Shown here: positions 8,714 to 18,957 of the stretch, piece by piece | How positions within the stretch are numbered: the stretch's first letter is position 1 | Layout of the letters: each line of letters opens with the position of its first letter | Source of the DNA: an uncultured Bacilli bacterium | GTDB lineage: Bacteria > Bacillota_I > Bacilli_A > RF39 > UBA660 | DNA: 43,664 nt | NCBI GenBank assembly: GCA_944329385.1 | Contig: CALVIE010000004.1 | Coordinates: 1 to 43,664, forward strand | Reading direction: 5' to 3' | Made by a program: the position numbers and the translations under genes | Notes under the pieces: generated by a model | Told to the model about the DNA's origin: nothing | Database searches by the model: none | Seen by the model: the letters and a program-made list of their open reading frames with translations, nothing else

Positions 8714-9571
8714 CTAATTGTTTATATGATGATGTATTTTTGGTGTATTTTTGGTTATTTTAGCAAATGTATAGCCGTTTTCTTTAGCATATTTAATAAT
8801 ATAAGGCAAGGCTTCGACAGTAGTTTTTTTAGTAGCTAGATCATGCATTAAAACGATGTTAGTTCCACTATGTATTTTATTCACTACGTTATTATATATG
8901 CTTTCTTTTGTCTGGCTACCGCTGGCATCATTAGAATCAATGTTCCAGTCAAAGTAATAGAATGATTTTTCTGTTAATTTATTTGTTATTCTTGTAATGA
9001 TGTTTTGATTATATTTTTTTGATATGGTATTTGATGATCCACCTGGTAATCTTATAATTCTTGATTTGATGCCTGTGATTTCAAAAACTTTTTGTCTAAT
9101 ATCATTTAAGTCTTTGAAATAGTTTTCATCAGATGAATAAATATAACTATAGTTATGAGTAGATGTATGAAGTCCAATAGTATGGTTTTCTTTTTGCATT
9201 CTTCTTATTATATTATTATATTTATCTATTTGCCCTTTTGTGACAAAGAAAGTAGCTGGAATATTTTCTTTTTTTAAAATGTCTAATATATATTCAGTTA
9301 AATAACTTGGACCATCATCAAAGGTTAGATATATTGTTTTATTTGATATTATAGATGGATTAATATTTTGAACTTTGATTTTATCTGGTTTATAGTAGTC
9401 TATTTTTTGATTAAAAGTTATTTTGGGTTTTATTTGTTTAAATTTGGGTTTTGGACTATTTATTTTAATTATATAGTTTAAAATTATTAAAATATTAAAT
9501 AAAAGGCATATTATGATTATTATAGGTATTTTATATTTTGAAATAGTTTTTTTGATGTTTTTATACTGCAT
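8714..9571 (-). CDS. Membrane-anchored polysaccharide deacetylase (CE4/NodB)
   Basis: TM anchor; TFDDGP, HTSTH, RLPGG, DWNIDS, LMHD motifs; likely ATG at 9571 after AGGTGA (track start 9580). Confidence 0.93.
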   Translation of the reverse strand: MQYKNIKKTISKYKIPIIIIICLLFNILIILNYIIKINSPKPKFKQIKPKITFNQKIDYYKPDKIKVQNINPSIISNKTIYLTFDDGPSYLTEYILDILKKENIPATFFVTKGQIDKYNNIIRRMQKENHTIGLHTSTHNYSYIYSSDENYFKDLNDIRQKVFEITGIKSRIIRLPGGSSNTISKKYNQNIITRITNKLTEKSFYYFDWNIDSNDASGSQTKESIYNNVVNKIHSGTNIVLMHDLATKKTTVEALPYIIKYAKENGYTFAKITKNTPKIHHHINN

Positions 9572-9623
9572 ACTACTCACCTATTCACATTATACCTTAA
9601 AATATAAAGAAAAACAAAGGGAA

Positions 9624-10547
9624 TTAGTATTTTCCTTTTGTTTTTTTGCATATATTATTTCTTTCTATTATTAAATTTATTATTTCATTTATGTTTTCAT
9701 CATCTTTGGTTTTGACTGTTTTATTTAATTTTTCTAATATTGTATTTTCAATTTCTTTTGTAAATTCAGATGATACGGGATCTGAAAATTTAAGAGATTC
9801 AATTAAGTCTTGATTATTTATCTTTTTAGCGATGTTTAATGCTTCTTCGGTAAAGGTTTGAATATTATTTACTTTTTTATCATATTCTTTTAGTCTATTT
9901 TTGACGAAATATAATGGTAAGAATAAGATAAAATATATGATAGTTGTAACGATAGTTATGGTTAAAAGATTATTTATATTTAAGTAAGCATACATGTTTA
10001 TAGCAAATAGATAAATAATGGATAAGATATATAAGAAAGTTATATATACTGTTTTATCTTGATTTTTCTTTTTGTTTAGAATTAATATAACCAGCAAGGT
10101 TATAATTAGGGCAATTAATTCTATTATAATAGTAAGATAAAAATTATTATTGATATTTTCATCTATTATTTGATTTATGGTTATAACAGATGAAGGAATA
10201 TATATTTCGCTTGGCATTTTATCTAAACTCATAGAAATAATGGTTACAGGAAGATTTTCGATGGTTTCTGGTATTATTATTTGATTTTCATTACCTTTAT
10301 AACCAGTTACTTCTATTTGATTATTTTTGATGTTATAAGTGAAATTATCGTTACTTTTAAGTTCGTTTAGTTCACTATCTGATATGTTTTGATAATTAAA
10401 ATTATTTTTTTCGGCATAGTTTTGAGCGTTTTGATTATTATGTGAGGTTAGTTTAATGGAGTTATTATTAAACGGTTTATTTAGATATGTTATAGTTAAG
10501 AAAATGGCACTTATTAATATTATAATAACTGGAATGATTTTTTTCAT
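9624..10547 (-). CDS. Membrane protein with BspA/LRR_5-like cap remnants and C-terminal SDPVS...ERN..CK helical domain
   Basis: N-terminal TM, VTGYKG...IIIPETIENLPVT and IYIPSSV BspA-like pieces, 3 further TM helices; starts 1 bp after the SPFH stop. Confidence 0.65.
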   Translation of the reverse strand: MKKIIPVIIILISAIFLTITYLNKPFNNNSIKLTSHNNQNAQNYAEKNNFNYQNISDSELNELKSNDNFTYNIKNNQIEVTGYKGNENQIIIPETIENLPVTIISMSLDKMPSEIYIPSSVITINQIIDENINNNFYLTIIIELIALIITLLVILILNKKKNQDKTVYITFLYILSIIYLFAINMYAYLNINNLLTITIVTTIIYFILFLPLYFVKNRLKEYDKKVNNIQTFTEEALNIAKKINNQDLIESLKFSDPVSSEFTKEIENTILEKLNKTVKTKDDENINEIINLIIERNNICKKTKGKY

Positions 10548-10548
10548 A

Positions 10549-11697
10549 TTATTTTATTCTCCTTCCACATTTAGGACAAAATATGTTATCAGGTTCTAAT
10601 TTATGATGACAGTTTGGACAGGTTAAACTATTTTCTAATGAGGTTCCACATTTTTTACAAAAGCTATGATCTTTAGAGTTTGCAGTTCCACATTTTGGAC
10701 ATGTTTTAGTACTATTATCAATATTAGCGATAACACCTTGAACATTATTTCCAACTTTATCGCCTAAAGTGGTACCTATTCCGCTCATGATACCAAGTCC
10801 TACTCCAACGTTAGCAAATTCACCTACTCCTTCGTTAGCGGCCATTTTTTCTAAAGCATTATAAGATCTTTCTTCTTGATATGAGTAACCTTCTTGCGCA
10901 CGCTTTTTGGCTTCAGCTTCAGAGGCGATGACTTTTTGTTTGGCTTTGGTTTCTTCATCTATGATATTTACTTTTTGTCTTATTTCAGCTTCAGCTACTG
11001 AGACTGTTTGTTTGAAGAATAGTTCTTTAAATTCTAAGTATTGTTTATCATCTTCTGGTTTTAATATGGTAGTTACAAAGAATTTATTTAGTTTAATACC
11101 ATAGTCTGCAAAATCTTTATTTAAAAGTTTTTGAAGGGTATCACTAAATTCGTTTAAGTATTTATCAACTTCAAAGATACATATTTTATTTTCGGTTATG
11201 ATGTTTGCCATATAACTTTTAACTTTTGTTAATATGCATGATGTGAAGAAGTTATCAATTGTTTCATTATCGATTGTTTTTTTGATGCCAACTAGTTTTA
11301 TCAATAATTTTCTTGCGTCTTCGACAATGAAACGCATTTCACCGCAAGCTCCAATTTGAATTGGGAAATTATATTTAGGGTCTAGAAATTCAATTTTACT
11401 ACTGGTTCCCCATTTACTATTTTTTTCGGTTTTATCGATAAAATATACTTCACACTGAAAGGGACTTCTAAAACCGGTTGGAATATTTAAAAATGTTTTT
11501 AGAAGTGGAATATTATTGGTGGTTAAGGTATATTTACCCGGTCCAAATAAATCTAGAGCTTTACCATTTGAGAAAAATAATGCTTCTTGTGATTCATGGA
11601 CTATTAACTGTGACATTGTGTTAAAATTTGTTTTAGGATATTTCCATACTAGATTATCATCAGCTTTTACTTTTTTTATTACTTCAAATATTGCCAT
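10549..11697 (-). CDS. SPFH/band-7 domain protein (YdjI-like) with C-terminal double zinc ribbon
   Basis: SQLIVHESQEALF...GPGKYTLTTNNIP, CEVYFI, KWGT motifs; EAEA coiled coil; CPKC/CKKC/CPNC/CPKC. Confidence 0.88.
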   Translation of the reverse strand: MAIFEVIKKVKADDNLVWKYPKTNFNTMSQLIVHESQEALFFSNGKALDLFGPGKYTLTTNNIPLLKTFLNIPTGFRSPFQCEVYFIDKTEKNSKWGTSSKIEFLDPKYNFPIQIGACGEMRFIVEDARKLLIKLVGIKKTIDNETIDNFFTSCILTKVKSYMANIITENKICIFEVDKYLNEFSDTLQKLLNKDFADYGIKLNKFFVTTILKPEDDKQYLEFKELFFKQTVSVAEAEIRQKVNIIDEETKAKQKVIASEAEAKKRAQEGYSYQEERSYNALEKMAANEGVGEFANVGVGLGIMSGIGTTLGDKVGNNVQGVIANIDNSTKTCPKCGTANSKDHSFCKKCGTSLENSLTCPNCHHKLEPDNIFCPKCGRRIK

Positions 11698-11706
11698 AAT
11701 TTACCT

Positions 11707-13566
11707 CTACTTTCTTTTTGGAATATATTTTGAATATGTATATTCTCCATTTTGTGATTTATATCCAGAGTATACATAACCTGTTTTGTTTGGAATATAT
11801 TCTATTTTATACCAAAGGCCATCTTTATCTGGACAGTTATCTATATTTTTACATGACACTATTTCTAGTACATTATAATAATTTTCTGAAAAGACATAAT
11901 TTTGTTTTTGGCTACTGCTATCTGGATTTTTTCTAACATTTATATAATCGGTTGTTACTAATATTTGGTCTTCATTTGTGTTTTGCACGCCTATATTTTT
12001 CGGTTTCATGAATACGATGAATATTAAGGTGATTGATATTACTAGGGCAAGTATATAAGCAATTATTGGTGTTTTAGTATGTGGGTTATCTTCAAAATTT
12101 TTCTTTGTTTCTTTTTGTAATTGCTTAATTTCTTCAGCGTACTGTTTTTTGATAAGAGTTGTTTCGGCTTTTAATTGCCATTTAGAGTTCATTAATATTA
12201 GTATGATAGTGAAAATGTAAATACCTAGGATGTATGAGTTAAAAGTTAAGTTATATTCTTTATATATAAAGACTGAAAATAGTAAGAATATAAATAGATT
12301 TATAATATATAGATATTTAGATATTCTTCGGCTTTTTCGGCTACTAAAACCTAGTATATAAGCTATAAAATATATTATAGATGTCGTGCCAAAGATTATT
12401 ACGAGCTGGGCGGATAATAGTTTTATATATAAAGTTGGATTGTTTGAAACAAAAACAGAATTACTAATTAATATAATATAGAAAGTGGCTACTATAGCGG
12501 AAAGTAAAAATGTGATTATACTATAACTTTTTGGACATTTTTCTTTGTATATTTTAACTTCTACGCCTCTTTCTTCTTCCTCTTGCTCTTTTCTTTTTAA
12601 CTCTTCTTCTTGTTTTAACATTTCTTTGAATTTGCTGAATAATTCATCAGATATTTCTTCATTTTTTGGTTCTTTTTTGATTATTTTAGTAACGCCTCTT
12701 ATTAGGTCTTGAATAGCGCCTATTTTATTTAGATCTTGCCCTTGAAGAAGAATAAATTCATCAGGTAAGTCAGCGGCTGTCATGCCATAAAAACAAGGAA
12801 TTAAGGTTTTATTTCTGTCTTTTTTCATGATGTCTAGATAACGGCTCCACTCGTTTTTAACCCAAACTGAGTTCATGTTTTTTTGAGATGTTCCAATTAC
12901 CAGCATTACTTTTGAGGATTTTAGTGCTGAATAGATATATGGTTCATATTCTGAGCCTATTTTATCTTCTAAAGTAATTCTAGAGAAGAATACTTTATAG
13001 TTTAATTTAGTTAATTCGTTATATATTTCTTGGGCTATTACGGAATCTTTGGTTCGCCCACCATTTTTTTCATCAGTTTCTTTATAACAAATGAATATAT
13101 CGTATGGGCTTTCTTTTTCAGATATTTCTAATATTTCTTTTTGAATTCTATTAATTTCTTTAGCTTCTTTTTCATAGAGTTCTAATGTTTTACCATAAGC
13201 ATTTTTTATGATATGTTTATACTCTTGAGCAGTTAAAATTGATTCTTTATTAGCTTTATGACAAGTGGGAATTTTTTTATTTGTTTTAGGGTCATCGACA
13301 TATTCAACGCCGTATTTACAAAGTAAGATACCCCACTGCGCTTCTAACTGAGTATTATCAAGATTTAGTATAGATTCATATAGGCCTTGCGCTTTATCAA
13401 ATTCATTGGATTGTCTTAGTTCGTTTGCTCTATTATAAAGATTGATTATTTTTTCATTATCAGAGTTTGGCAAGGTCATAGAACTTTTACAGTATAGACA
13501 TTTACCGGTATTAGTACCTTTAATTGGCTCAATATCGCCGCCACACATTTTACATTTAAAGGTCAT
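11707..13566 (-). CDS. Zn-ribbon/TPR-like/TIR/multi-TM/SH3b protein, copy C
   Basis: CKMC..CLYC; TIR box YDIFICYK, KVFFS, WVKNEW; about 5 TM; SH3b INVRKNP...WYKIEY...GYVYS. Confidence 0.85.
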   Translation of the reverse strand: MTFKCKMCGGDIEPIKGTNTGKCLYCKSSMTLPNSDNEKIINLYNRANELRQSNEFDKAQGLYESILNLDNTQLEAQWGILLCKYGVEYVDDPKTNKKIPTCHKANKESILTAQEYKHIIKNAYGKTLELYEKEAKEINRIQKEILEISEKESPYDIFICYKETDEKNGGRTKDSVIAQEIYNELTKLNYKVFFSRITLEDKIGSEYEPYIYSALKSSKVMLVIGTSQKNMNSVWVKNEWSRYLDIMKKDRNKTLIPCFYGMTAADLPDEFILLQGQDLNKIGAIQDLIRGVTKIIKKEPKNEEISDELFSKFKEMLKQEEELKRKEQEEEERGVEVKIYKEKCPKSYSIITFLLSAIVATFYIILISNSVFVSNNPTLYIKLLSAQLVIIFGTTSIIYFIAYILGFSSRKSRRISKYLYIINLFIFLLFSVFIYKEYNLTFNSYILGIYIFTIILILMNSKWQLKAETTLIKKQYAEEIKQLQKETKKNFEDNPHTKTPIIAYILALVISITLIFIVFMKPKNIGVQNTNEDQILVTTDYINVRKNPDSSSQKQNYVFSENYYNVLEIVSCKNIDNCPDKDGLWYKIEYIPNKTGYVYSGYKSQNGEYTYSKYIPKRK

Positions 13567-13620
13567 TTAAAACACACTCCCACTACTTTTTCTATTATGA
13601 TTTTATCATATTTGTTTTTT
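13483..13620. repeat. 138-bp direct repeat shared with 15452-15589 (promoter, RBS and first codons of TIR copies C and B)
   Basis: Direct comparison by eye shows one mismatch; offset 1969 bp. Confidence 0.9.
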
Positions 13621-13628
13621 AAAAGCAA
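13600..13628 (-). promoter_or_regulatory. Sigma-A promoter of TIR copy C/SPFH/membrane operon
   Basis: TTGCTT, 17 bp, TAAAAT with extended -10 TG. Confidence 0.6.
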
Positions 13629-13632
13629 TTAC

Positions 13633-13661
13633 GCATAAAAAGCCTTTTATGGCTTTTTATG
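13633..13661. terminator. Intrinsic terminator after TIR copy B
   Basis: CATAAAAAGCC-N6-GGCTTTTTATG hairpin immediately after the stop at 13664. Confidence 0.75.
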
Positions 13662-13663
13662 TT

Positions 13664-15535
13664 TTATTTACTTTTTTTGAAAAATTTAACTTCCAAGTCA
13701 TCTGTTCTACTGTTTTTTTCATATATGTAGCCTACTTTATAACTTTTATCTATACTAGCATAATTTGTTTTGACTTTGTAAAATTTATCTGAAAATTTAT
13801 TTTTATTTACTTCTAATACAGTAAATACTGATTCTGTTGTTGGCCGTCCACTACTTAAATTTCGTTTTTTATCTAAGTATATTCTAAATCTATCATTTGT
13901 ATTTTTGGAAACTATTATTATTTGATCTTTGGTTTTATCACGAACTAATGGCTGACCGGTATTTAAAGAACTATATGTGTGAATAGCAATATATAATATT
14001 AATGTAATGGCAAATATTATTTTAATTATTTTGCCTTTTGATTTTTCTTTGGTTTTAAAATTTTCTTTAATATATTTATTTTTCTTTAATTGTCTATCTT
14101 TTTCTTCAGCATTCATTATTGATTTAGTACTAGAGTTTAGGGTCCAAGATGGATTTATAAATAATAAGATAAATTCTATTATATATATAAGACTAGTGAT
14201 TGCTATTATATTTAAGTCATTTTGAATTATTGGTAAAATAAAATTATATTCTTTATTTACAATGTTATTAATGATTGCGGAAATGCTTGGAATAAACTGA
14301 AAGAAAGTTAATAGAAAAGATATAGTAATTAATATATTTTTATATTTATAACTTTTTCTTTTAAAGATAAAGAAATAGCTTACTGCGAAAAATATCCATG
14401 AGACAAATAATGGCCAAACATTATTAAAATGAATATTGCTATAGTGTGCGAAGGCTAGACTTAAATATATATTGGAGCCTATAAAAATTAAAACGGTTAC
14501 AATGACATAATACCAAGTCGGCAATTTTTCTTTTAAGACAGTTACTTCATATCTGCCATTTCCTAAGTTTTTGGCATCTTCTAAAACGTTTTGAACTTTG
14601 GCGATGGTTTCTTTATCTATGCCTTCAATGTCGTCTACTTTAGTTTCTTCAATTATTTTTTTAACGCCTCTTGTTAAATCTTGCATGGCGCCAACTTTAT
14701 CCATTGATTGGGCTTGAAGCATGGCAAATTCTTCTGGAAGTTTATAGGCGTCTATTTTACTATATACGGGTATTAAAACTTTTGATTTGTCCTGATGCAT
14801 CATTTCTAAAAATCTACTCCACTCGTTTTTGACCCATACAGCACTAAAGTTTTCTTCGCTTGTTCCAACTACGAGCATTACTTTTGAGGTTTTTAAAGCT
14901 GAGTAGATATAAGGCTCATATTCTTTTCCAAGTTTATTTTCTAGGGTTATTTTTGAGAAAAATACTTTAAATCCAAGATTTGTTAGTTTATCATAGATAT
15001 CTTCGGCAATGACAGAGTCATGGGTACGATTTCCTTGTTTATCGGTTTCTTTATAACAAATGAATACATCATAAGGCTTTTCTTTTGAAGAAATTGATAG
15101 GATGTTTTTTTGAATATCATCAATTTGTTTAGCTTCTTTTTCGTAGAGTTTTAAAGCTTCACCATATGAATTTTTTTTGATATATTTAAAATCATTATCT
15201 AGTAAGATTGAATAGTCACTTGTTCTATGACATGTTGGTATTTTTGTTTTGGTTTTAGGGTCATCGACATATTCAACGCCATATTTACAAAGAAGGATAC
15301 CCCAGTGGGCTTCTGTTTCATTATTATCTATTTTTAATATGGTTTCATATATTTCTTTTGATTTATCAAATTCATTATTTAATCTTAAGTCATTGGCTCT
15401 ATTATATAGATTTACTATTCTTTCGTTATCGATATTGGGCAAGGTCATTATACTTTTACAGTATAGACATTTACCGGTATTAGTGCCTTTAATTGGCTCA
15501 ATATCGCCGCCACACATTTTACATTTAAAGGTCAT
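13664..15535 (-). CDS. Zn-ribbon/TPR-like/TIR/multi-TM protein with degenerate SH3b-like C-terminus, copy B
   Basis: First ~344 aa nearly identical to copy A; YDVFICYK, WVKNEW; C-terminal FTVLEV...FYKVKT...GYIY. Confidence 0.85.
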   Translation of the reverse strand: MTFKCKMCGGDIEPIKGTNTGKCLYCKSIMTLPNIDNERIVNLYNRANDLRLNNEFDKSKEIYETILKIDNNETEAHWGILLCKYGVEYVDDPKTKTKIPTCHRTSDYSILLDNDFKYIKKNSYGEALKLYEKEAKQIDDIQKNILSISSKEKPYDVFICYKETDKQGNRTHDSVIAEDIYDKLTNLGFKVFFSKITLENKLGKEYEPYIYSALKTSKVMLVVGTSEENFSAVWVKNEWSRFLEMMHQDKSKVLIPVYSKIDAYKLPEEFAMLQAQSMDKVGAMQDLTRGVKKIIEETKVDDIEGIDKETIAKVQNVLEDAKNLGNGRYEVTVLKEKLPTWYYVIVTVLIFIGSNIYLSLAFAHYSNIHFNNVWPLFVSWIFFAVSYFFIFKRKSYKYKNILITISFLLTFFQFIPSISAIINNIVNKEYNFILPIIQNDLNIIAITSLIYIIEFILLFINPSWTLNSSTKSIMNAEEKDRQLKKNKYIKENFKTKEKSKGKIIKIIFAITLILYIAIHTYSSLNTGQPLVRDKTKDQIIIVSKNTNDRFRIYLDKKRNLSSGRPTTESVFTVLEVNKNKFSDKFYKVKTNYASIDKSYKVGYIYEKNSRTDDLEVKFFKKSK

Positions 15536-15549
15536 TTAAAACACACTCC
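14507..15549. repeat. ~1.04-kb near-identical direct repeat, unit 1 (partner 16456-17498)
   Basis: Offset 1949 bp; about 9 substitutions seen by eye, all near the two ends. Confidence 0.95.
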
Positions 15550-15568
15550 CACTACTTTTTCTATTATG

Positions 15569-15597
15569 ATTTTATCATATTTGTTTTTTTAAAACAA
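15569..15597 (-). promoter_or_regulatory. Promoter of TIR copy B
   Basis: TTGTTT, 17 bp, TAAAAT with extended -10 TG; same leader as copy C. Confidence 0.55.
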
Positions 15598-15639
15598 TGA
15601 TTTATAAAAGTACGGTCAAAATACAAATATTGTTATAAT

Positions 15640-17484
15640 TTATTTTTTTTCTAATTTTTTAATATATTCGTGATTATCTCCACTATAAACATAACCAGTG
15701 ATGCCAGTTCCAGTTTTAATTTTATACCAATAGTTGTTTTTATATACTTTTTCTTTATCTAAAACTGTATATATTTCACCCTTTTTTACTTCGCCTAAAA
15801 TAATACTGTTATCGTCTGCACTTGGGGTTTGTCTTATTCTAATAAATTCATTAATTACTTCTATTTGTTCTTTTGATATGTCACGTTTATTGTGTTGATT
15901 ACTATTTATATTTATGAATATATTTATTGTAATAAATAGTATGGTTAATATGATTAAAATAGTTTTTATTAATTTGCCTTTTTGTTTTTCCTTAGTTTTA
16001 AAATTTTCTTTTATAGATTTGTTTTTCTTTAATTGATTGTCTTTTTCTTCAGCGGTCATTATTGATTTAATACTAGAGTTTAATGACCAAACTGGGTTTA
16101 ATGATATGAATATTATTTGAAAGATTGTAATAAGGCAAGCTATAACCATTTGTTCATAGTTTTCCATGATAAGTGTATAAGCGATTTTATATTCACGATT
16201 AAATAAATTAATCATAACATTTGTTAGAAACTGGTTAAAAAATATTATTAAAAAAATTATGGACAATGTGGTCATTACCTTTTTATATTTATATCTTTTT
16301 CTATTTAGACAAAAAATTAGTGATAATATGAAGAACATTAACGATATTAATAAAGAAATTATGCTTACTAAGTTTATGTTATTATTATAAATATATTGTG
16401 CGGCAAGAAATAAATATAGCCAGCCAACAAATAAGAATATGATAGCTTCTAATATATAATACCAAGTCGGCAATTTTTCTTTTAAGACAGTTACTTCATA
16501 TCTGCCATTTCCTAAGTTTTTGGCTTCGTCTAAAACATTTTGAACTTTAGCAATGGTTTCTTTATCTATGCCTTCAATGTCGTCTACTTTAGTTTCTTCA
16601 ATTATTTTTTTAACGCCTCTTGTTAAATCTTGCATGGCGCCAACTTTATCCATTGATTGGGCTTGAAGCATGGCAAATTCTTCTGGAAGTTTATAGGCGT
16701 CTATTTTACTATATACGGGTATTAAAACTTTTGATTTGTCCTGATGCATCATTTCTAAAAATCTACTCCACTCGTTTTTGACCCATACAGCACTAAAGTT
16801 TTCTTCGCTTGTTCCAACTACGAGCATTACTTTTGAGGTTTTTAAAGCTGAGTAGATATAAGGCTCATATTCTTTTCCAAGTTTATTTTCTAGGGTTATT
16901 TTTGAGAAAAATACTTTAAATCCAAGATTTGTTAGTTTATCATAGATATCTTCGGCAATGACAGAGTCATGGGTACGATTTCCTTGTTTATCGGTTTCTT
17001 TATAACAAATGAATACATCATAAGGCTTTTCTTTTGAAGAAATTGATAGGATGTTTTTTTGAATATCATCAATTTGTTTAGCTTCTTTTTCGTAGAGTTT
17101 TAAAGCTTCACCATATGAATTTTTTTTGATATATTTAAAATCATTATCTAGTAAGATTGAATAGTCACTTGTTCTATGACATGTTGGTATTTTTGTTTTG
17201 GTTTTAGGGTCATCGACATATTCAACGCCATATTTACAAAGAAGGATACCCCAGTGGGCTTCTGTTTCATTATTATCTATTTTTAATATGGTTTCATATA
17301 TTTCTTTTGATTTATCAAATTCATTATTTAATCTTAAGTCATTGGCTCTATTATATAGATTTACTATTCTTTCATTATCAATATTGGGCAAGGTCATTAT
17401 ACTTTTACAGTATAGACATTTACCAGTATTAGTGCCTTTAATTGGCTCGATATCGCCGCCACACATTTTACATTTAAAGGTCAT
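15640..17484 (-). CDS. Zn-ribbon/TPR-like/TIR/multi-TM/SH3b protein, copy A
   Basis: CKMC..CLYC; YDVFICYK, WVKNEW; about 5 TM; clear SH3b IRIRQTPS...GEVKKGEIYTVL...WYKIKT...GYVYS. Confidence 0.87.
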   Translation of the reverse strand: MTFKCKMCGGDIEPIKGTNTGKCLYCKSIMTLPNIDNERIVNLYNRANDLRLNNEFDKSKEIYETILKIDNNETEAHWGILLCKYGVEYVDDPKTKTKIPTCHRTSDYSILLDNDFKYIKKNSYGEALKLYEKEAKQIDDIQKNILSISSKEKPYDVFICYKETDKQGNRTHDSVIAEDIYDKLTNLGFKVFFSKITLENKLGKEYEPYIYSALKTSKVMLVVGTSEENFSAVWVKNEWSRFLEMMHQDKSKVLIPVYSKIDAYKLPEEFAMLQAQSMDKVGAMQDLTRGVKKIIEETKVDDIEGIDKETIAKVQNVLDEAKNLGNGRYEVTVLKEKLPTWYYILEAIIFLFVGWLYLFLAAQYIYNNNINLVSIISLLISLMFFILSLIFCLNRKRYKYKKVMTTLSIIFLIIFFNQFLTNVMINLFNREYKIAYTLIMENYEQMVIACLITIFQIIFISLNPVWSLNSSIKSIMTAEEKDNQLKKNKSIKENFKTKEKQKGKLIKTILIILTILFITINIFININSNQHNKRDISKEQIEVINEFIRIRQTPSADDNSIILGEVKKGEIYTVLDKEKVYKNNYWYKIKTGTGITGYVYSGDNHEYIKKLEKK

Positions 17485-17498
17485 TTAAAACACACTCC
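16456..17498. repeat. ~1.04-kb near-identical direct repeat, unit 2 (partner 14507-15549)
   Basis: Direct sequence comparison. Confidence 0.95.
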
Positions 17499-17550
17499 TA
17501 GTTTTATATTATAATTTTATCATATTTATGTTTAGCATTTTATAGTATAA

Positions 17551-18957
17551 TTAATTATTTACTCCATGAGTTATCATAGGAGTTGACATGGTTATTTTTT
17601 CAAAAGTATATCCGTTATTTTTACCATATCTGATGATATTTCTTAAAGCATCTTTAGTATGGGTCTTAATATCATGCATTAATACCATGTTACTTCTATT
17701 TTTGCTTAAATTTTTAATTACATTATTATAAACTCCTGAACTAGTTTTAGTACTTCCAGCATCATCTGAATCGATATTCCAATCATAATATCTATAACCT
17801 TTATTTACAACATCTTTAGTTAAAGTGCTCATAATACCTTTTGAATATTTTTTAGAAATTGTATTTGATGAACCACCTGGAAATCTAATTATTTTAGCTG
17901 TTTGTCCGGTTATTTTCTTTACTCTATCTTGAACTTTAAATAAATCATTATAATAATTATTTACTGATTTATAAAGATAAGAATAATCATGAGAAGCTGT
18001 ATGGAGTGCTACTGTATGACCTTCATTATATTCTCTTTTAATTAAATAGTCTGGTCCTTTTGCAGTAACAAAGAAAGTTGCTTTAACGTTTTCTTCTTTT
18101 AATATATCTAAAATGACATTTGTTGTTCCTTCATTTGGTCCATCGTCAAAGGTTAAATATATAACTCCTTTATTAGAACCTGAGTTAGAATTATAAGTTG
18201 GTTTAGATATTACTTTAACGGTTCTTTCTACTATTGTTTGATTGCCAGATGAATCTTTTACAGTATAAGTTATTTTATAAGTTCCTAATTTATTTGAGTT
18301 TACGGTGCCACTTGCTTTTACGTTATTTGTAATATCATTATCACAGTTATCAGTGGCGGTGTAGCCAGGATCAGTCCAAGGATTACCTAAATATAAGGTG
18401 ATAGTTTTATTACCTTTTAAAGTAATGACTGGGGATGTTTTATCTTCTTTGGTTATTGTTCTTTTTACTTTGGCAATATTTCCAGAAGAGTCTTTTACGG
18501 AGTATGTGATTATACCATCTTTGGTAGTTACTTTGACTTTTTTTGTTATATCACCATCATAATTATCTATAGCTTTATATCCTTCTTCTTTATATTCAGC
18601 GTTTGGACATATAGATACGTTTTCATTACCGGTTAAGGTTATGACGGGTTTTTCATCATCAATTAATTTAATTTTTCTAATTTTTTTAAAAGTAATACCA
18701 TTTATTTTAATTTCATAAGTTATTTTATAAGTTCCAAGTTTTTTTTGATTTATTTCATTTTTTACTTTGACTTTTTTTGTATAATCTTTTCCAAATTTAG
18801 TTACTTTATAGCCTGGTTCTTGATATTTTTGACCGTATTTTAAGGTTATAGTTTCATCATTTTTTAATTCAAATTTTGGGGGCCAAAAAAGAAATGATAT
18901 GATTGCAGTAAGTAATAATATAATAACAATAATTCCTATAACAAACTTCTTTTTCAT
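17551..18957 (-). CDS. Polysaccharide deacetylase (CE4) with three Ig-like DUF5011/HYR-type repeats
   Basis: TM anchor; repeated PVITL.G...GY.A.DN.D.DIT...Y.VKDSSGN units; TFDDGP, HTASH, RFPGG, LMHD. Confidence 0.93.
   Translation of the reverse strand: MKKKFVIGIIVIILLLTAIISFLFWPPKFELKNDETITLKYGQKYQEPGYKVTKFGKDYTKKVKVKNEINQKKLGTYKITYEIKINGITFKKIRKIKLIDDEKPVITLTGNENVSICPNAEYKEEGYKAIDNYDGDITKKVKVTTKDGIITYSVKDSSGNIAKVKRTITKEDKTSPVITLKGNKTITLYLGNPWTDPGYTATDNCDNDITNNVKASGTVNSNKLGTYKITYTVKDSSGNQTIVERTVKVISKPTYNSNSGSNKGVIYLTFDDGPNEGTTNVILDILKEENVKATFFVTAKGPDYLIKREYNEGHTVALHTASHDYSYLYKSVNNYYNDLFKVQDRVKKITGQTAKIIRFPGGSSNTISKKYSKGIMSTLTKDVVNKGYRYYDWNIDSDDAGSTKTSSGVYNNVIKNLSKNRSNMVLMHDIKTHTKDALRNIIRYGKNNGYTFEKITMSTPMITHGVNN

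What the first reader, a model, noticed from the sequence alone, without database searches (positions are those of the whole stretch)
9624..17484. Candidate Toll-like-receptor-like system: array of transmembrane TIR receptors plus SPFH scaffold plus membrane partner
Seen: three tandem ~615-620 aa paralogues, each with an N-terminal CxxC..CxxC ribbon, a TPR-like helical pair, a TIR domain (YD[V/I]FICYK, WVKNEW), about 5 hydrophobic helices and a C-terminal SH3b-like domain. Copy C is tightly coupled (9-bp and 1-bp gaps) to an SPFH double-zinc-ribbon gene and a multi-TM gene. Established: bacterial TIR domains with the WxxxE glutamate are oligomerisation-activated NAD+-consuming enzymes (Thoeris, TIR-STING, Pycsar); SH3b domains commonly bind cell-wall material; SPFH proteins form membrane scaffolds. 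Inference: an odd TM count and Lys-rich inner loops put TIR inside and SH3b outside. That gives an extracellular-ligand receptor that would cluster on an SPFH scaffold and signal or kill through TIR. I do not recognise this as a named defence system.
Basis: partly seen in the sequence, partly recalled or inferred. Interest (0 to 1): 0.92.

Follow-up and report, generated by a model that had tools for sequence, protein, structure and literature searches.

The report
Membrane TIR receptor array with SPFH partner
A gut bacterium carries three tandem membrane proteins, each with a TIR enzyme domain inside the cell and a wall-binding-type domain outside, next to a flotillin-like scaffold gene and a membrane partner gene; the same three-gene set recurs in many gut bacteria and seems undescribed.

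Summary
Five co-oriented genes at 9624-17484 encode three paralogues, here called T, plus two partners, S and M. Each T is a Zn-ribbon/TPR head, a TIR domain, 5 TM helices and an SH3b tail. S is a soluble SPFH protein (PF13421) with a double Zn ribbon. M is a 4-TM protein of no known family. Fold search confirms the TIR and SH3b folds. Charge distribution supports TIR inside and SH3b outside.

The linkage is not chance. Of 80 related loci from other species, 51 carry S, 47 carry M and 45 carry both, on the T strand. In a sample of 300 Clostridia-class genomes, 20 of 23 T-positive genomes also hold M.

T genes form arrays of 1-5. The head and TIR are conserved (median 65% identity within an array). 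The tails are divergent (26%): RCC1, DUF6273, LRR or SH3b, with or without a TM helix.

S is homologous to the YdjI/SamI-type SPFH protein of Bacillus subtilis. M is not a YdjH homologue.

PADLOC, NCBIfam and seven literature searches gave no named system.

My best reading is a sensor-TIR conflict system working on an M-anchored SPFH platform. Binding, NADase activity, trigger and outcome are all inferred. It is a new variant of TIR-based systems, and of high interest.

The parts
15640..17484 (-). T-A: Zn-ribbon/TPR head, TIR, 5 TM helices, SH3b (614 aa)
   Evidence: ORF. TIR_2 1e-10 and SH3_3 1.3e-7, both above cut-off. Five hydrophobic segments. Charge bias fits N-in, C-out.
13664..15535 (-). 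T-B: same head and TIR as T-A (identical protein to about residue 340), a different 5-TM region, and a tail with no Pfam hit (623 aa)
   Evidence: The tail aligns with the SH3b of A and C but gives no SH3_3 hit.
11707..13566 (-). T-C: the copy directly coupled to S and M (619 aa); 68% identical to A and B over the first 300 residues and 46-49% overall
   Evidence: AF2 model with pLDDT 83.4. Fold matches to TIR and SH3b.
13474..13566 (-). T-C residues 1-31: N-terminal Zn ribbon (C5, C8, C23, C26), part of the conserved head
   Evidence: C8, C23 and C26 are invariant and C5 nearly invariant across 37 and 51 family members. Three short strands in the AF2 model. The head is homologous to the head of a TIR-less family found next to S-M (hhalign 97.1%, E 6.8e-11, 81 columns).
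12676..13098 (-). T-C residues 157-297: TIR domain. The codon of the putative catalytic Glu E239 lies at 12850-12852.
   Evidence: Pfam TIR_2. Alternating strand/helix pattern in the model. Foldseek TIR hits. W235, V236, N238, E239, W240 and R242 are invariant in 51 sequences. E239 aligns with the WCLxE Glu of plant TIRs (weak).
12010..12531 (-). T-C residues 346-519: four-helix membrane bundle, a Lys-rich cytoplasmic loop (459-500) and a fifth TM helix
   Evidence: AF2 helices, hydropathy and charge counts.
11722..11967 (-). T-C residues 534-615: SH3b-like beta domain, predicted to lie outside the cell
   Evidence: SH3_3 1.3e-5, 25.8 bits against a cut-off of 27. Foldseek hits to BT_1314, PlySb and other bacterial SH3 domains, probability 1.00.
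10549..11697 (-). S: soluble SPFH protein (PF13421) with a coiled-coil region, a Gly-rich stretch and a C-terminal double Zn ribbon (382 aa)
   Evidence: Pfam Band_7_1 4e-40 and DZR 3e-11. No hydrophobic segment. Homologous to the YdjI-type protein of a pspA-ydjGHI-type operon (hhalign 99.4%, E 2.9e-21, 205 columns).
9624..10547 (-). M: a 4-TM protein (307 aa). It has a small beta ectodomain (27-129) between TM1 and TM2, and a cytoplasmic helical C-terminal domain carrying the family motif YSDP[VM]S ... RNxxCKxxK.
   Evidence: ORF. No Pfam, NCBIfam or PADLOC family. AF2 pLDDT 90.6. Only a weak TpLRR match for the ectodomain (E 0.036). Alignment of 45 family members. Topology charges.
13567..13663 (-). 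Spacer between T-B and T-C. It holds a hairpin (13633-13662), then a stretch of about 50 nt that also precedes T-B (15536-15639) and, less exactly, T-A (17485-17550). That stretch has a -10-like TATGATAAAAT and a GGGAGTG ribosome-binding site.
   Evidence: Upstream sequences printed. Hairpin found. The promoter and terminator function is inferred, not shown.
8714..9580 (-). Polysaccharide deacetylase paralogue 1. This is the border of the cassette, not part of the system.
   Evidence: Pfam Polysacc_deac_1 6e-30. Related genomes without the cassette have one deacetylase gene between the DUF208-like and MarR genes.
17551..18957 (-). Polysaccharide deacetylase paralogue 2 with three Ig-like domains. 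This is the other border of the cassette.
   Evidence: Pfam. Synteny in five related genomes.

Best explanation
The region encodes a conserved three-component, membrane-associated TIR system, which I call T-S-M.

T proteins are modular sensor enzymes. Each has a conserved cytoplasmic head (Zn ribbon plus TPR), a TIR domain with the catalytic-type Glu, and a fast-diverging tail. In this window the tail is 5 TM helices plus an extracellular SH3b domain.

S is a soluble YdjI/SamI-type SPFH protein. M is a 4-TM protein with a conserved cytoplasmic domain.

Proposed mechanism:
- M holds an S oligomer under the membrane.
- The T paralogues dock on this platform through their shared heads.
- A ligand engages the variable tail. 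For the SH3b tails this would be cell-wall-derived or invader-derived material outside the cell.
- Ligand binding changes how the TIR domains pack, so that they self-associate and cleave NAD+.
- The outcome is growth arrest or death of the attacked cell, as in abortive-infection defence.

Shown here: the anatomy, the folds, the topology signals, the conserved gene linkage, the patchy and indel-like distribution, and the conserved-head, diversified-tail pattern in arrays.

Inferred: every physical contact, the NADase activity, the trigger and the outcome.
For: Anatomy and folds.

Topology: the inside loops are Lys/Arg-rich and the outside loops are not. In single-pass relatives a K/R cluster precedes the TM helix.

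TIR under constraint: W235, V236, N238, E239, W240, R242 and the FICxKE strand are invariant in 51 sequences. E239 aligns with the WCLxE Glu of plant TIRs (weak). That this Glu is the catalytic residue is my recall, not a call result.

Linkage within the genus: in 5 of 5 same-genus genomes that have T, S follows it. M follows in 4 of 4 where the contig continues.

Linkage across species: of 80 loci from other species, S is present in 51, M in 47 and both in 45, all on the T strand. Of the 29 loci without S, 24 are cut within 4 kb on one side.

Genome-level co-occurrence: among 300 scored genomes of one Clostridia-type class, T is in 23, M in 32 and both in 20. In 19 of those 20 the two lie on the same contig.

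Accessory character:
- T is found in 5 of 24 same-genus genomes and 22 of 399 genomes of its own class.
- G010 has an empty site, with the DUF208-like, deacetylase and MarR genes contiguous.
- T copy number varies from 1 to 3 within the genus.
- A TIR-less S-M cassette sits among recombinase, Mob and transposase genes in G011.

Repertoire pattern: arrays hold 1-5 T genes. Within-array identity is 65% for head plus TIR against 26% for the tail, and head exceeds tail in 53 of 54 pairs. A and B have recombined exactly at the TIR/TM junction.

The head as a docking module: a TIR-less 420-aa family that also follows S-M has a homologous head (hhalign 97.1%, E 6.8e-11).

Precedent for a soluble SPFH protein brought to the membrane: S is homologous to the YdjI type. 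In B. subtilis, YdjI needs the membrane proteins YdjG and YdjH to reach the membrane (PMC8581546, passages read; bioRxiv 10.64898/2026.02.06.704340, abstract and introduction).
Against: No experiment or prediction here shows that T, S and M touch.

The window is not in a defence island. Its neighbours are an ABC transporter, a MarR regulator, deacetylases, a DUF208-like gene and a phosphoglycerate mutase.

A PADLOC scan covered 148 of 324 eligible neighbour ORFs from 57 loci. It found only scattered defence genes: one type II R-M pair, dGTPase, MzaA, a DRT reverse transcriptase, IetA, and mad3 in 4 members. It had no control.

No homologue was found in 72,556 plasmid records or 50,697 phage records. 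This mobility is lower than many defence systems show.

The head-plus-TIR module is 50-60% identical across classes. That is much more conserved than is usual for defence TIRs and could point to a housekeeping partner.

Of 60 T relatives, 25 have no TM helix. Membrane anchoring of T is therefore not essential to the family.

M is not a YdjH homologue (hhalign 0.3%), so the SamGHI analogy is only partial.

Five S-less loci have at least 4 kb on both sides. T can therefore sit away from S-M.
Confidence: 0.45

Rival explanations
1. Thoeris-like signalling. The T proteins are sensors whose TIR makes a small nucleotide signal (a cADPR isomer or similar). S-M is the effector that reads the signal and damages or seals the membrane. 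Several sensors serve one effector pair, and no stable T to S-M contact is needed.
For: The gene logic is the same as in Thoeris, with several TIR genes beside one effector unit: arrays of 1-5 T and one S-M. A 2025 preprint reports about 30 effector types for TIR signals, many of them TM proteins or domains of unknown function (10.64898/2025.12.03.692087, abstract and passages). M has a strongly conserved cytoplasmic motif, YSDPxS ... RNxxCKxxK, that could form a ligand pocket. There is a weak NCBIfam hit to the Thoeris type III protein ThcB4 (E 7e-5).
Against: The NCBIfam Thoeris score is 21.8 bits against a cut-off of 220. Pfam finds no known signal-binding domain (SLOG, Macro, SAVED, STING) in S or M. 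The preprint's main text contains neither SPFH, Band nor flotillin (0 occurrences each); I could not see its supplements. This model does not explain the very conserved Zn-ribbon/TPR head, nor the TIR-less proteins with the same head next to S-M.
Confidence: 0.22
2. Envelope-stress surveillance rather than immunity. T-S-M would be an elaboration of the SamGHI (YdjGHI) membrane-stress module. S senses or stabilises perturbed membrane, the T tails read cell-wall state through SH3b, and the TIR adjusts NAD+ metabolism or growth. No invader is involved.
For: S is homologous to the YdjI type (hhalign 99.4%). The T head resembles the N-terminal Zn ribbon of the YdjG type (hhalign 84.4%, E 7.1e-6, 46 columns). 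SamGHI is described as a membrane stress sensor complex (bioRxiv 10.64898/2026.02.06.704340, abstract). In this genus the cassette sits between two peptidoglycan-type deacetylase genes. The head and TIR are unusually conserved.
Against: Distribution is patchy: 5 of 24 in the genus, 22 of 399 and 23 of 300 in the two class samples. Copy number varies and tails are hypervariable. Both patterns fit conflict genes better than a core stress response. There is no PspA-like gene in the cassette. Among the ORF clusters from the 80 loci, none beyond T, S, M and their opposite-strand shadow ORFs recurs in more than 18 loci, and that one is ABC-type ATPases. The deacetylase link is seen in only 2 of the 69 loci outside the closest relatives, strongly in L028 and weakly in L039. 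M is unrelated to YdjH.
Confidence: 0.18
3. Cell-surface recognition with a non-enzymatic TIR. The T proteins would be adhesion or cell-cell recognition receptors. Their TIR and head serve only as assembly domains on an SPFH microdomain, as TIR adaptors do in animals.
For: Surface-type tails occur in the family: SH3b, BspA-type LRR, RCC1 and DUF6273. The organisms are gut dwellers; runs holding the DNA are labelled as chicken and bird gut metagenomes.
Against: The catalytic-type Glu and its surrounding motif are invariant in 51 of 51 sequences. Of 60 relatives, 25 are soluble. As far as I recall, every bacterial TIR tested so far has been an enzyme; this comes from no call.
Confidence: 0.05

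Closest known systems
Thoeris and other bacterial TIR defence proteins (ThsB arrays, TIR-STING, SPARTA TIR-APAZ, SpbK)
   Same: The TIR fold is shared, with the catalytic-type Glu in the same helix. Several TIR genes sit beside one partner unit. The distribution across genomes is patchy.
   Different: Pfam sees no ThsA-type or other known effector domain. Thoeris models score far below cut-off (21.8 against 220). PADLOC gives only a weak TIR-level hit to the candidate PDC-S66 (E 3.7e-9 and 1.2e-6 for B and C, none for A). The Zn-ribbon/TPR head, the TM-plus-ectodomain tails and the SPFH and M partners are not part of any described type in the text I could search.
PspA-YdjGHI (SamGHI) membrane stress module of Bacillus subtilis
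   Same: S and the YdjI type share the PF13421 SPFH domain, a low-complexity stretch and a C-terminal Zn ribbon, and neither has a membrane anchor (PMC8581546 passages). A membrane protein with an N-terminal Zn ribbon is encoded alongside (YdjG; hhalign with the T head 84.4%).
   Different: M is not a YdjH homologue. The cassette has no PspA. The Zn-ribbon protein here carries a TIR domain and a variable tail and is multiplied into arrays. YdjGHI is a single-copy stress operon.
Animal Toll-like receptors
   Same: The layout is shared: ligand-binding domain outside, membrane span, TIR inside. One relative (L037) has seven stretches of BspA-type LRR after a single TM helix. Repertoires of paralogues have conserved TIR and variable sensor parts.
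   Different: The domain order is reversed, with TIR at the N-terminal side. The window copies have 5 TM helices and SH3b rather than LRR. The TIR keeps an enzyme-type Glu. 25 of 60 relatives are soluble. There is no evidence of common descent of the whole architecture. This is a resemblance in how it may work, not family membership.
SPFH-NfeD and HflK/C-FtsH membrane cages
   Same: An SPFH protein is encoded next to a membrane partner, and it may organise a membrane client.
   Different: Neither an NfeD domain nor a protease domain is found in M or T. S has no TM segment. It belongs to PF13421 rather than to the classical Band_7 family (138 bits for PF13421 against 31 bits for PF01145).

Membership tests
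TIR domain superfamily (Pfam TIR_2, PF13676) | Profile match above the curated cut-off | tested here: met
   42.6-42.7 bits against a cut-off of 28 in all three T proteins. 60 of 60 relatives also match.
TIR domain superfamily (Pfam TIR_2, PF13676) | Flavodoxin-like TIR fold | tested here: met
   Foldseek hits to SPARTA TIR-APAZ, Roq1, RPS4, MAL, MyD88 and TcpB. Probability is 1.00, and the TM-score normalised to the target is 0.50-0.72 for the isolated TIR domains. E-values are only 1e-3 to 6e-2.
TIR NADases | Conserved catalytic Glu in the helix after strand C (WxxxE type) | tested here: met
   E239 in WVKNEW is invariant in 51 sequences. It lies in helix 234-249 after strand 220-225. It aligns with the Glu of WCLxEL in the SNC1 and L6 TIR structures (E 0.23-0.55, weak). 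That this residue is the catalytic one is my recall.
TIR NADases | NAD+ cleavage activity | not testable with these tools
   This needs an enzyme assay of the TIR and of an E239A mutant.
Thoeris | ThsB-type TIR recognised by curated models | tested here: not met
   NCBIfam Thoeris_type3_ThcB4 scores 20.1-21.8 bits against a cut-off of 220. There is no PADLOC Ths model hit at E up to 0.1.
Thoeris | Adjacent effector with a known signal-binding domain | tested here: not met
   S matches only SPFH and Zn-ribbon families, and M matches no family. A new kind of effector cannot be excluded.
PspA-YdjGHI / SamGHI module | Soluble PF13421 SPFH protein with a low-complexity stretch and a C-terminal Zn ribbon | tested here: met
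   Pfam. No TM segment. hhalign against the YdjI-type protein of an operon fetched with the published ydjG primer gives 99.4%, E 2.9e-21.
PspA-YdjGHI / SamGHI module | YdjG-type membrane protein with an N-terminal Zn ribbon | tested here: inconclusive
   hhalign of the T head against the YdjG type gives 84.4%, E 7.1e-6, over only 46 columns.
PspA-YdjGHI / SamGHI module | YdjH homologue | tested here: not met
   hhalign of the M family against the YdjH type gives probability 0.3%.
PspA-YdjGHI / SamGHI module | PspA (ESCRT-III type) gene in the operon | tested here: not met
   The cassette holds only T, S and M between two deacetylase genes. No further ORF cluster recurs with the system in the 80 loci.
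Bacterial SH3 (SH3b, PF08239) | Profile match above cut-off, and the fold | tested here: met
   A scores 32.2 bits against a cut-off of 27. C scores 25.8, below cut-off, but its model matches solved SH3b domains. B has no profile hit, so the feature is met for A and C only.
Toll-like receptors | N-terminal LRR ectodomain, one TM helix, C-terminal TIR | tested here: not met
   The order is reversed, there are 5 TM helices, and the outer domain is SH3b. This is a functional analogy only.
PADLOC candidate PDC-S66 | Full-length match to the model | tested here: inconclusive
   The hits are partial: profile positions 92/118 to 249 of 282, 26-34 bits, for B and C only. The library gives no curated cut-off.

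The most novel reading that the evidence does not exclude
Gut Bacillota carry germline-encoded repertoires of pattern-recognition receptors built like Toll-like receptors. A variable ligand-binding domain (SH3b, LRR, RCC1 propeller or DUF6273) sits outside the cell or in the cytoplasm. It is joined to an enzymatic TIR domain inside. All paralogues of an array plug through a shared Zn-ribbon/TPR head into one SPFH microdomain platform held at the membrane by a dedicated 4-TM protein. This would be the first bacterial immune system that senses an invader, or damage, from outside the cell through a TIR receptor. It would also be the first in which a flotillin-like scaffold is an obligatory immune component.
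Probability: 0.3. Interest if true: 0.95.

Novelty: new variant of a known kind. Interest (0 to 1): 0.82.

Why it matters
TIR domains link bacterial, plant and animal immunity. The bacterial TIR systems I know of are cytoplasmic sensors or signal makers.

This is a widespread family with more than 590 loci in species-representative genomes. It is present in about 5-8% of sampled genomes of two classes. It places an enzyme-type TIR on the inner side of the membrane under a variable outer domain, and always pairs it with an SPFH protein.

Three questions would become directly testable:
- Can bacteria detect threats before or at the envelope through TIR receptors?
- What do the poorly understood YdjI-type SPFH proteins do mechanistically?
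- Is the receptor-TM-TIR layout of Toll-like receptors a recurrent solution?

At least two loci come from records named as strains rather than metagenome bins: Pseudoflavonifractor capillosus An827 and a Blautia sp.. Experiments are therefore feasible.

Tried and rejected
Complex prediction. I sent T-C residues 1-300 (the scored partner), full S, and M residues 190-307, each with its own alignment. The result was no verdict: score 0.00 in both runs, and the controls were not run. It counts neither for nor against binding.

Sequence search of solved structures with the full-length T profile. It returned only spurious short-repeat hits (WD40 and designed TPR proteins) and no TIR. The TIR relation needed the fold search.

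BLASTP of the G011 420-aa protein against T-C was not significant (E 0.27-0.39). The relation of the two heads showed up only by profile-profile comparison.

Fold search for M. Nothing matched the TM and C-terminal helical part; the GPCR and designed-helix hits have E above 0.09 and low TM-scores. The protein atlas gave only unnamed Bacillota clusters at scores 0.79-0.81, below the level that means anything.

Promoter and terminator scans. Promoter-like sites were 82 against 75.8 expected, which is uninformative. Among the terminator-like sites I noted only the 13633-13662 hairpin between T-B and T-C.

Sequencing runs. All four runs laid were contigs only. The one run on record as RNA (X20) has short contigs with 0-1 mismatches on S (10949-11465) and on T-C (12656-12814). 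The tool warns that presence in an RNA library does not show transcription, so I make no expression claim. Low depth over copy B in run X3 is no finding on its own.

Mobility. There was no hit in the plasmid or phage record collections. Two of 2.9 million IMG/VR contigs carry the system. That is too few to call it phage-borne.

Defence-island test. The PADLOC scan of 148 of 324 neighbour ORFs had no matched control and gives family counts, not member counts. I treat it as inconclusive.

Considered and rejected:
- Assembly artefact for the A/B identity. Two-copy and one-copy-plus-remnant versions exist in other genomes of the genus, and the divergence boundary is sharp and in frame.
- SPFH-NfeD pair. 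There is no NfeD domain.

Supplementary files of papers were closed. The effector tables of the 2025 Thoeris preprint and the PADLOC and DefenseFinder updates after 2023 may bear on the claim that the system is unnamed.

Full report
WHAT IS THERE. The window has about 27% G+C. It lies in a 1.35-Mb draft genome of 99 contigs, 81% complete. Public records of close relatives are titled uncultured Bacilli bacterium. Runs that hold the DNA are labelled chicken or bird gut metagenomes.

Between 9624 and 17484 five genes lie head to tail on the minus strand:
- Three paralogues that I call T: T-A (614 aa), T-B (623 aa) and T-C (619 aa).
- S (382 aa), 9 bp after T-C.
- M (307 aa), 1 bp after S.

Pfam gives TIR_2 above its cut-off in all three T proteins. 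SH3_3 is above cut-off in A, just below in C and absent in B. The TPR hit is sub-threshold. S matches Band_7_1 (PF13421, 4e-40) plus a double zinc ribbon. M matches nothing.

The AlphaFold model of T-C has mean pLDDT 83.4. In order it shows:
- a three-stranded Zn ribbon (2-31);
- helices 38-84;
- a beta hairpin (87-102);
- a long helix (125-151);
- the alternating strand/helix TIR core (157-297);
- a low-confidence linker (300-306) and a helix (307-332);
- four membrane helices (346-458);
- a Lys-rich helix (474-493);
- a fifth membrane helix (501-519);
- a beta domain (534-615).

Foldseek matches the TIR part to SPARTA TIR-APAZ, Roq1, RPS4, MAL, MyD88 and TcpB. It matches the last domain to bacterial SH3 domains. 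Probability is 1.00, though E-values are only 1e-3 to 6e-2 for this multi-domain query.

TOPOLOGY. Assume the cysteine-rich, signal-less N-terminus is inside. The loops that then fall inside carry K+R of 6 and 11 in A, 5 and 12 in B, and 9 in C, plus an RKSRR stretch at the start of TM3 in C. The loops that fall outside carry 0-2. Five crossings therefore put SH3b outside.

M has four TM helices, with MKK at the start and a KKKNQDK loop inside. Residues 27-129 form an outside beta domain that weakly resembles a BspA-type LRR (TpLRR, E 0.036). Its C-terminal helical domain of about 90 residues is cytoplasmic. S has no hydrophobic segment.

THE T FAMILY. A profile-free search of 1.84 billion representative proteins found 6537 relatives at E up to 1e-3, and 3859 at E up to 1e-30. 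Among the best 150, nearly all align only over residues 1 to about 300 at 40-62% identity. Their total lengths run from 432 to 2363 residues.

The conserved unit is therefore the head plus TIR. Invariant positions in 51 sequences include three of the Zn-ribbon cysteines (the fourth is nearly invariant), the FIC-KE strand, and W235, V236, N238, E239, W240 and R242. E239 aligns with the Glu of WCLxEL in the SNC1 and L6 TIR structures (weak E-values). From memory, that is the catalytic residue of TIR NADases.

The tails differ. Of 60 T proteins from other species:
- 18 carry RCC1 repeats, 13 DUF6273, 4 BspA-type LRR and 3 LRR_8.
- A few carry a ribosomal L12 C-terminal domain (3), EF-Tu domain 2 (2), DnaJ (1) or RHS repeats (1).
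- 35 have one or more strong TM helices, usually preceded by a K/R cluster.
- 25 have none; hydropathy is cleanly bimodal, at least 2.07 against at most 1.45.
- RCC1 and DUF6273 tails occur both with a TM helix and without one.
- One protein, in L037, is TIR, then a TM helix, then seven stretches of LRR_5.

THE LINKAGE. In the genus, 5 of 24 other genomes have T. In all 5, S follows T. M follows in the 4 where the contig goes on. The cassette always sits between two polysaccharide deacetylase paralogues. It holds one, two or three T genes, and one genome keeps a 63-residue remnant of a lost tail.

Genomes without the cassette have a single deacetylase gene. In G010 it lies contiguously between the DUF208-like gene and MarR, and in G018 next to the DUF208-like gene. 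The cassette is therefore an indel.

I analysed the 80 best loci:
- S is present in 51, M-family genes in 47, and both in 45, always on the T strand. The usual order is S-M-T... or T...-S-M.
- Of the 29 loci without S, 24 end within 4 kb on one side. Five have room on both sides and hold a lone T.
- One of those five (L078) comes from the same assembly as a complete locus (L084).
- T genes per locus: one in 48, two in 22, three in 4, four in 4 and five in 2.

At genome level I sampled 300 scored genomes of the class that holds Pseudoflavonifractor. T is in 23, the M family in 32 and both in 20. In 19 of those 20, T and M lie on one contig. Three genomes have T only and 12 have M only. Related genomes are not independent, so I give no statistic.

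In the window's own class, T is in 22 of 399 scored genomes, including the window's own. Apart from T, S, M and their opposite-strand shadow ORFs, no cluster recurs in more than 18 of the 80 loci. That one is generic ABC ATPases.

DIVERSIFICATION. For 54 pairs of T genes that share a locus, the head-plus-TIR module is 65% identical at the median and the tail 26%. The module exceeds the tail in 53 of 54 pairs. For 150 random pairs from different loci the figures are 59% and 11%.

In the window, A and B have almost identical DNA for the first 1028 nt (9 mismatches). They then diverge abruptly at the TIR/TM junction. This fits gene conversion of the head or exchange of tail cassettes. Each T gene carries its own conserved upstream stretch.

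THE PARTNERS. The M family (45 sequences aligned) has a 4-TM core and a cytoplasmic domain. S, D and P of the YSDP[VM]S motif and N of the terminal RNxxCKxxK are nearly invariant, and the terminal R and K are invariant. It has no Pfam, NCBIfam or PADLOC family.

S belongs to PF13421. That family also hits Bacillus subtilis among the control genomes. The characterised member of this SPFH group is YdjI/SamI. It is a soluble SPFH protein with a low-complexity stretch and a zinc finger, and it reaches the membrane only through the membrane proteins YdjG and YdjH (PMC8581546, passages; bioRxiv 10.64898/2026.02.06.704340, abstract and introduction).

I fetched a pspA-ydjGHI-type operon with the published ydjG primer and compared profiles:
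- S against the YdjI type: 99.4%, E 2.9e-21.
- T head against the N-terminal Zn ribbon of the YdjG type: 84.4%, E 7.1e-6, over 46 columns.
- M family against the YdjH type: 0.3%.

A further clue comes from a TIR-less family of about 420 residues. It has a Zn-ribbon/TPR head and a cysteine-rich C-terminal module. It follows S-M in G011, where the cassette lies among recombinase, Mob and transposase genes, and in four of the 80 loci. Its head is homologous to the T head (97.1%, E 6.8e-11). So S-M keeps company with proteins that share this head, with or without TIR.

HOW IT MOST LIKELY WORKS. I read the shared, conserved head as the part that connects each T paralogue to the single S-M unit. I read the tail as the sensor and the TIR as the output.

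The best-supported model is that M anchors an S oligomer. T proteins dock on it. Ligand binding to the tail lets TIR domains associate and cleave NAD+, which stops the cell. For the window's copies the ligand would be met outside the membrane by SH3b.

Every contact and the chemistry are inferred. The one complex prediction returned no verdict.

The main rival keeps the same parts but makes T a signal generator and S-M the effector, as in Thoeris. A second rival sees a SamGHI-like envelope-stress device.

Four observations argue against a plain housekeeping role: the patchy distribution, the indel behaviour, the variable copy number and the hypervariable tails.

Three argue against a typical defence system. 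The genomic neighbourhood is ordinary. Plasmid and phage records hold no homologue. The head plus TIR is unusually conserved.

IS IT KNOWN? PADLOC (2023 models) gives nothing for A, S or M, and only a weak TIR-level match to the candidate PDC-S66 for B and C. NCBIfam (2026) gives only far-sub-threshold hits.

I ran seven full-text searches. Only two papers hold both 'TIR domain' and 'SPFH'. In the one I opened, SPFH occurs only in the reference list. The other, seen only as a search listing, is a plant nitric-oxide paper.

The main text of the 2025 preprint on systematic discovery of TIR systems contains neither SPFH, Band nor flotillin. The same holds for a 2026 paper on domain-centric discovery. 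I could not read supplements, and tools newer than those held here may name the system.

On this evidence it is an undescribed type within the known kind 'TIR-based conflict systems', joined to a YdjI-type SPFH module.

VERDICT. The extracellular-receptor layout applies to about 58% of the family members sampled (35 of 60), including the three in this window.

Scores: interest 0.82; novelty, new variant of a known kind.

Noticed in passing
Same genome, contig C3: L100 6924-9487: A second PF13421 SPFH gene with a C-terminal Zn ribbon (385 aa). It is followed by two Tim44-like proteins that also end in Zn ribbons. This is a TIR-less context for the same SPFH family.
   Followed up: partly
L017 6109-9184 (genome G011); also L091 2194-3441, L058 16527-17696, L034 4493-5551, L071 8088-8999: A TIR-less family of about 420 aa follows S-M. 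It has a Zn-ribbon/TPR head homologous to the T head and a conserved C-terminal module, GGCYVATxVYGSYDCPxVWTLRRFRDY. In G011 the cassette lies among recombinase, Mob and transposase genes. The same C-terminal module is fused to one T protein (L036).
   Followed up: partly
Relatives in alignment A5 (loci L029-L072): Some T tails carry domains of core translation or chaperone proteins: ribosomal L12 C-terminal domain in 3 of 60, EF-Tu domain 2 in 2 of 60 and DnaJ in 1 of 60. This recalls the integrated decoys of plant immune receptors. I did not identify which members carry them.
   Followed up: no
L037 9992-13981: A 1329-aa relative with the head and TIR, one strong TM helix at about residue 496, and then seven stretches of BspA-type LRR (LRR_5, E 2.7e-197). 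Of the proteins seen, this is the closest in composition to a Toll-like receptor.
   Followed up: partly
window 13567-13663, 15536-15639, 17485-17550: Each T gene has its own copy of a conserved upstream stretch of about 50 nt, with a -10-like TATGATAAAAT and a GGGAGTG ribosome-binding site. A hairpin (13633-13662) separates T-B from T-C. T-C, S and M may therefore form their own transcription unit.
   Followed up: partly
window 14456-15535 versus 16405-17484: The first 1028 nt or so of T-A and T-B differ at only 9 positions, and identity then collapses at the TIR/TM junction. This indicates recent gene conversion or tail-cassette exchange. One genus genome (L016, 3113-3301) keeps a 63-residue remnant of a C-type tail behind an A-type gene.
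   Followed up: partly
window 9624-10547; L019-L027: The outer domain of M is a single BspA-LRR-like unit in the window. In related Bacilli it is expanded to several units (M proteins of 413-510 aa). In most Clostridia-type relatives (about 230 aa) it is absent.
   Followed up: partly
window 8714-9580 and 17551-18957: The cassette is bracketed by two polysaccharide deacetylase paralogues. Related genomes without the cassette have one such gene at this site. Recombination between the paralogues could gain or lose the cassette.
   Followed up: partly
window 13400-15500, run X3: In an independent DNA run, contigs bridge M-S and S-T-C and cover T-A. Summed contig depth over T-B is low, 0.5-4 against about 10 elsewhere. 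This is possibly strain variation in copy number, and contig depth is a poor measure.
   Followed up: no
L101 and L102 (IMG/VR contigs): Two contigs in the viral collection carry T with S, and L101 also carries M. I did not examine whether these are prophage-borne cassettes or misclassified host DNA.
   Followed up: no
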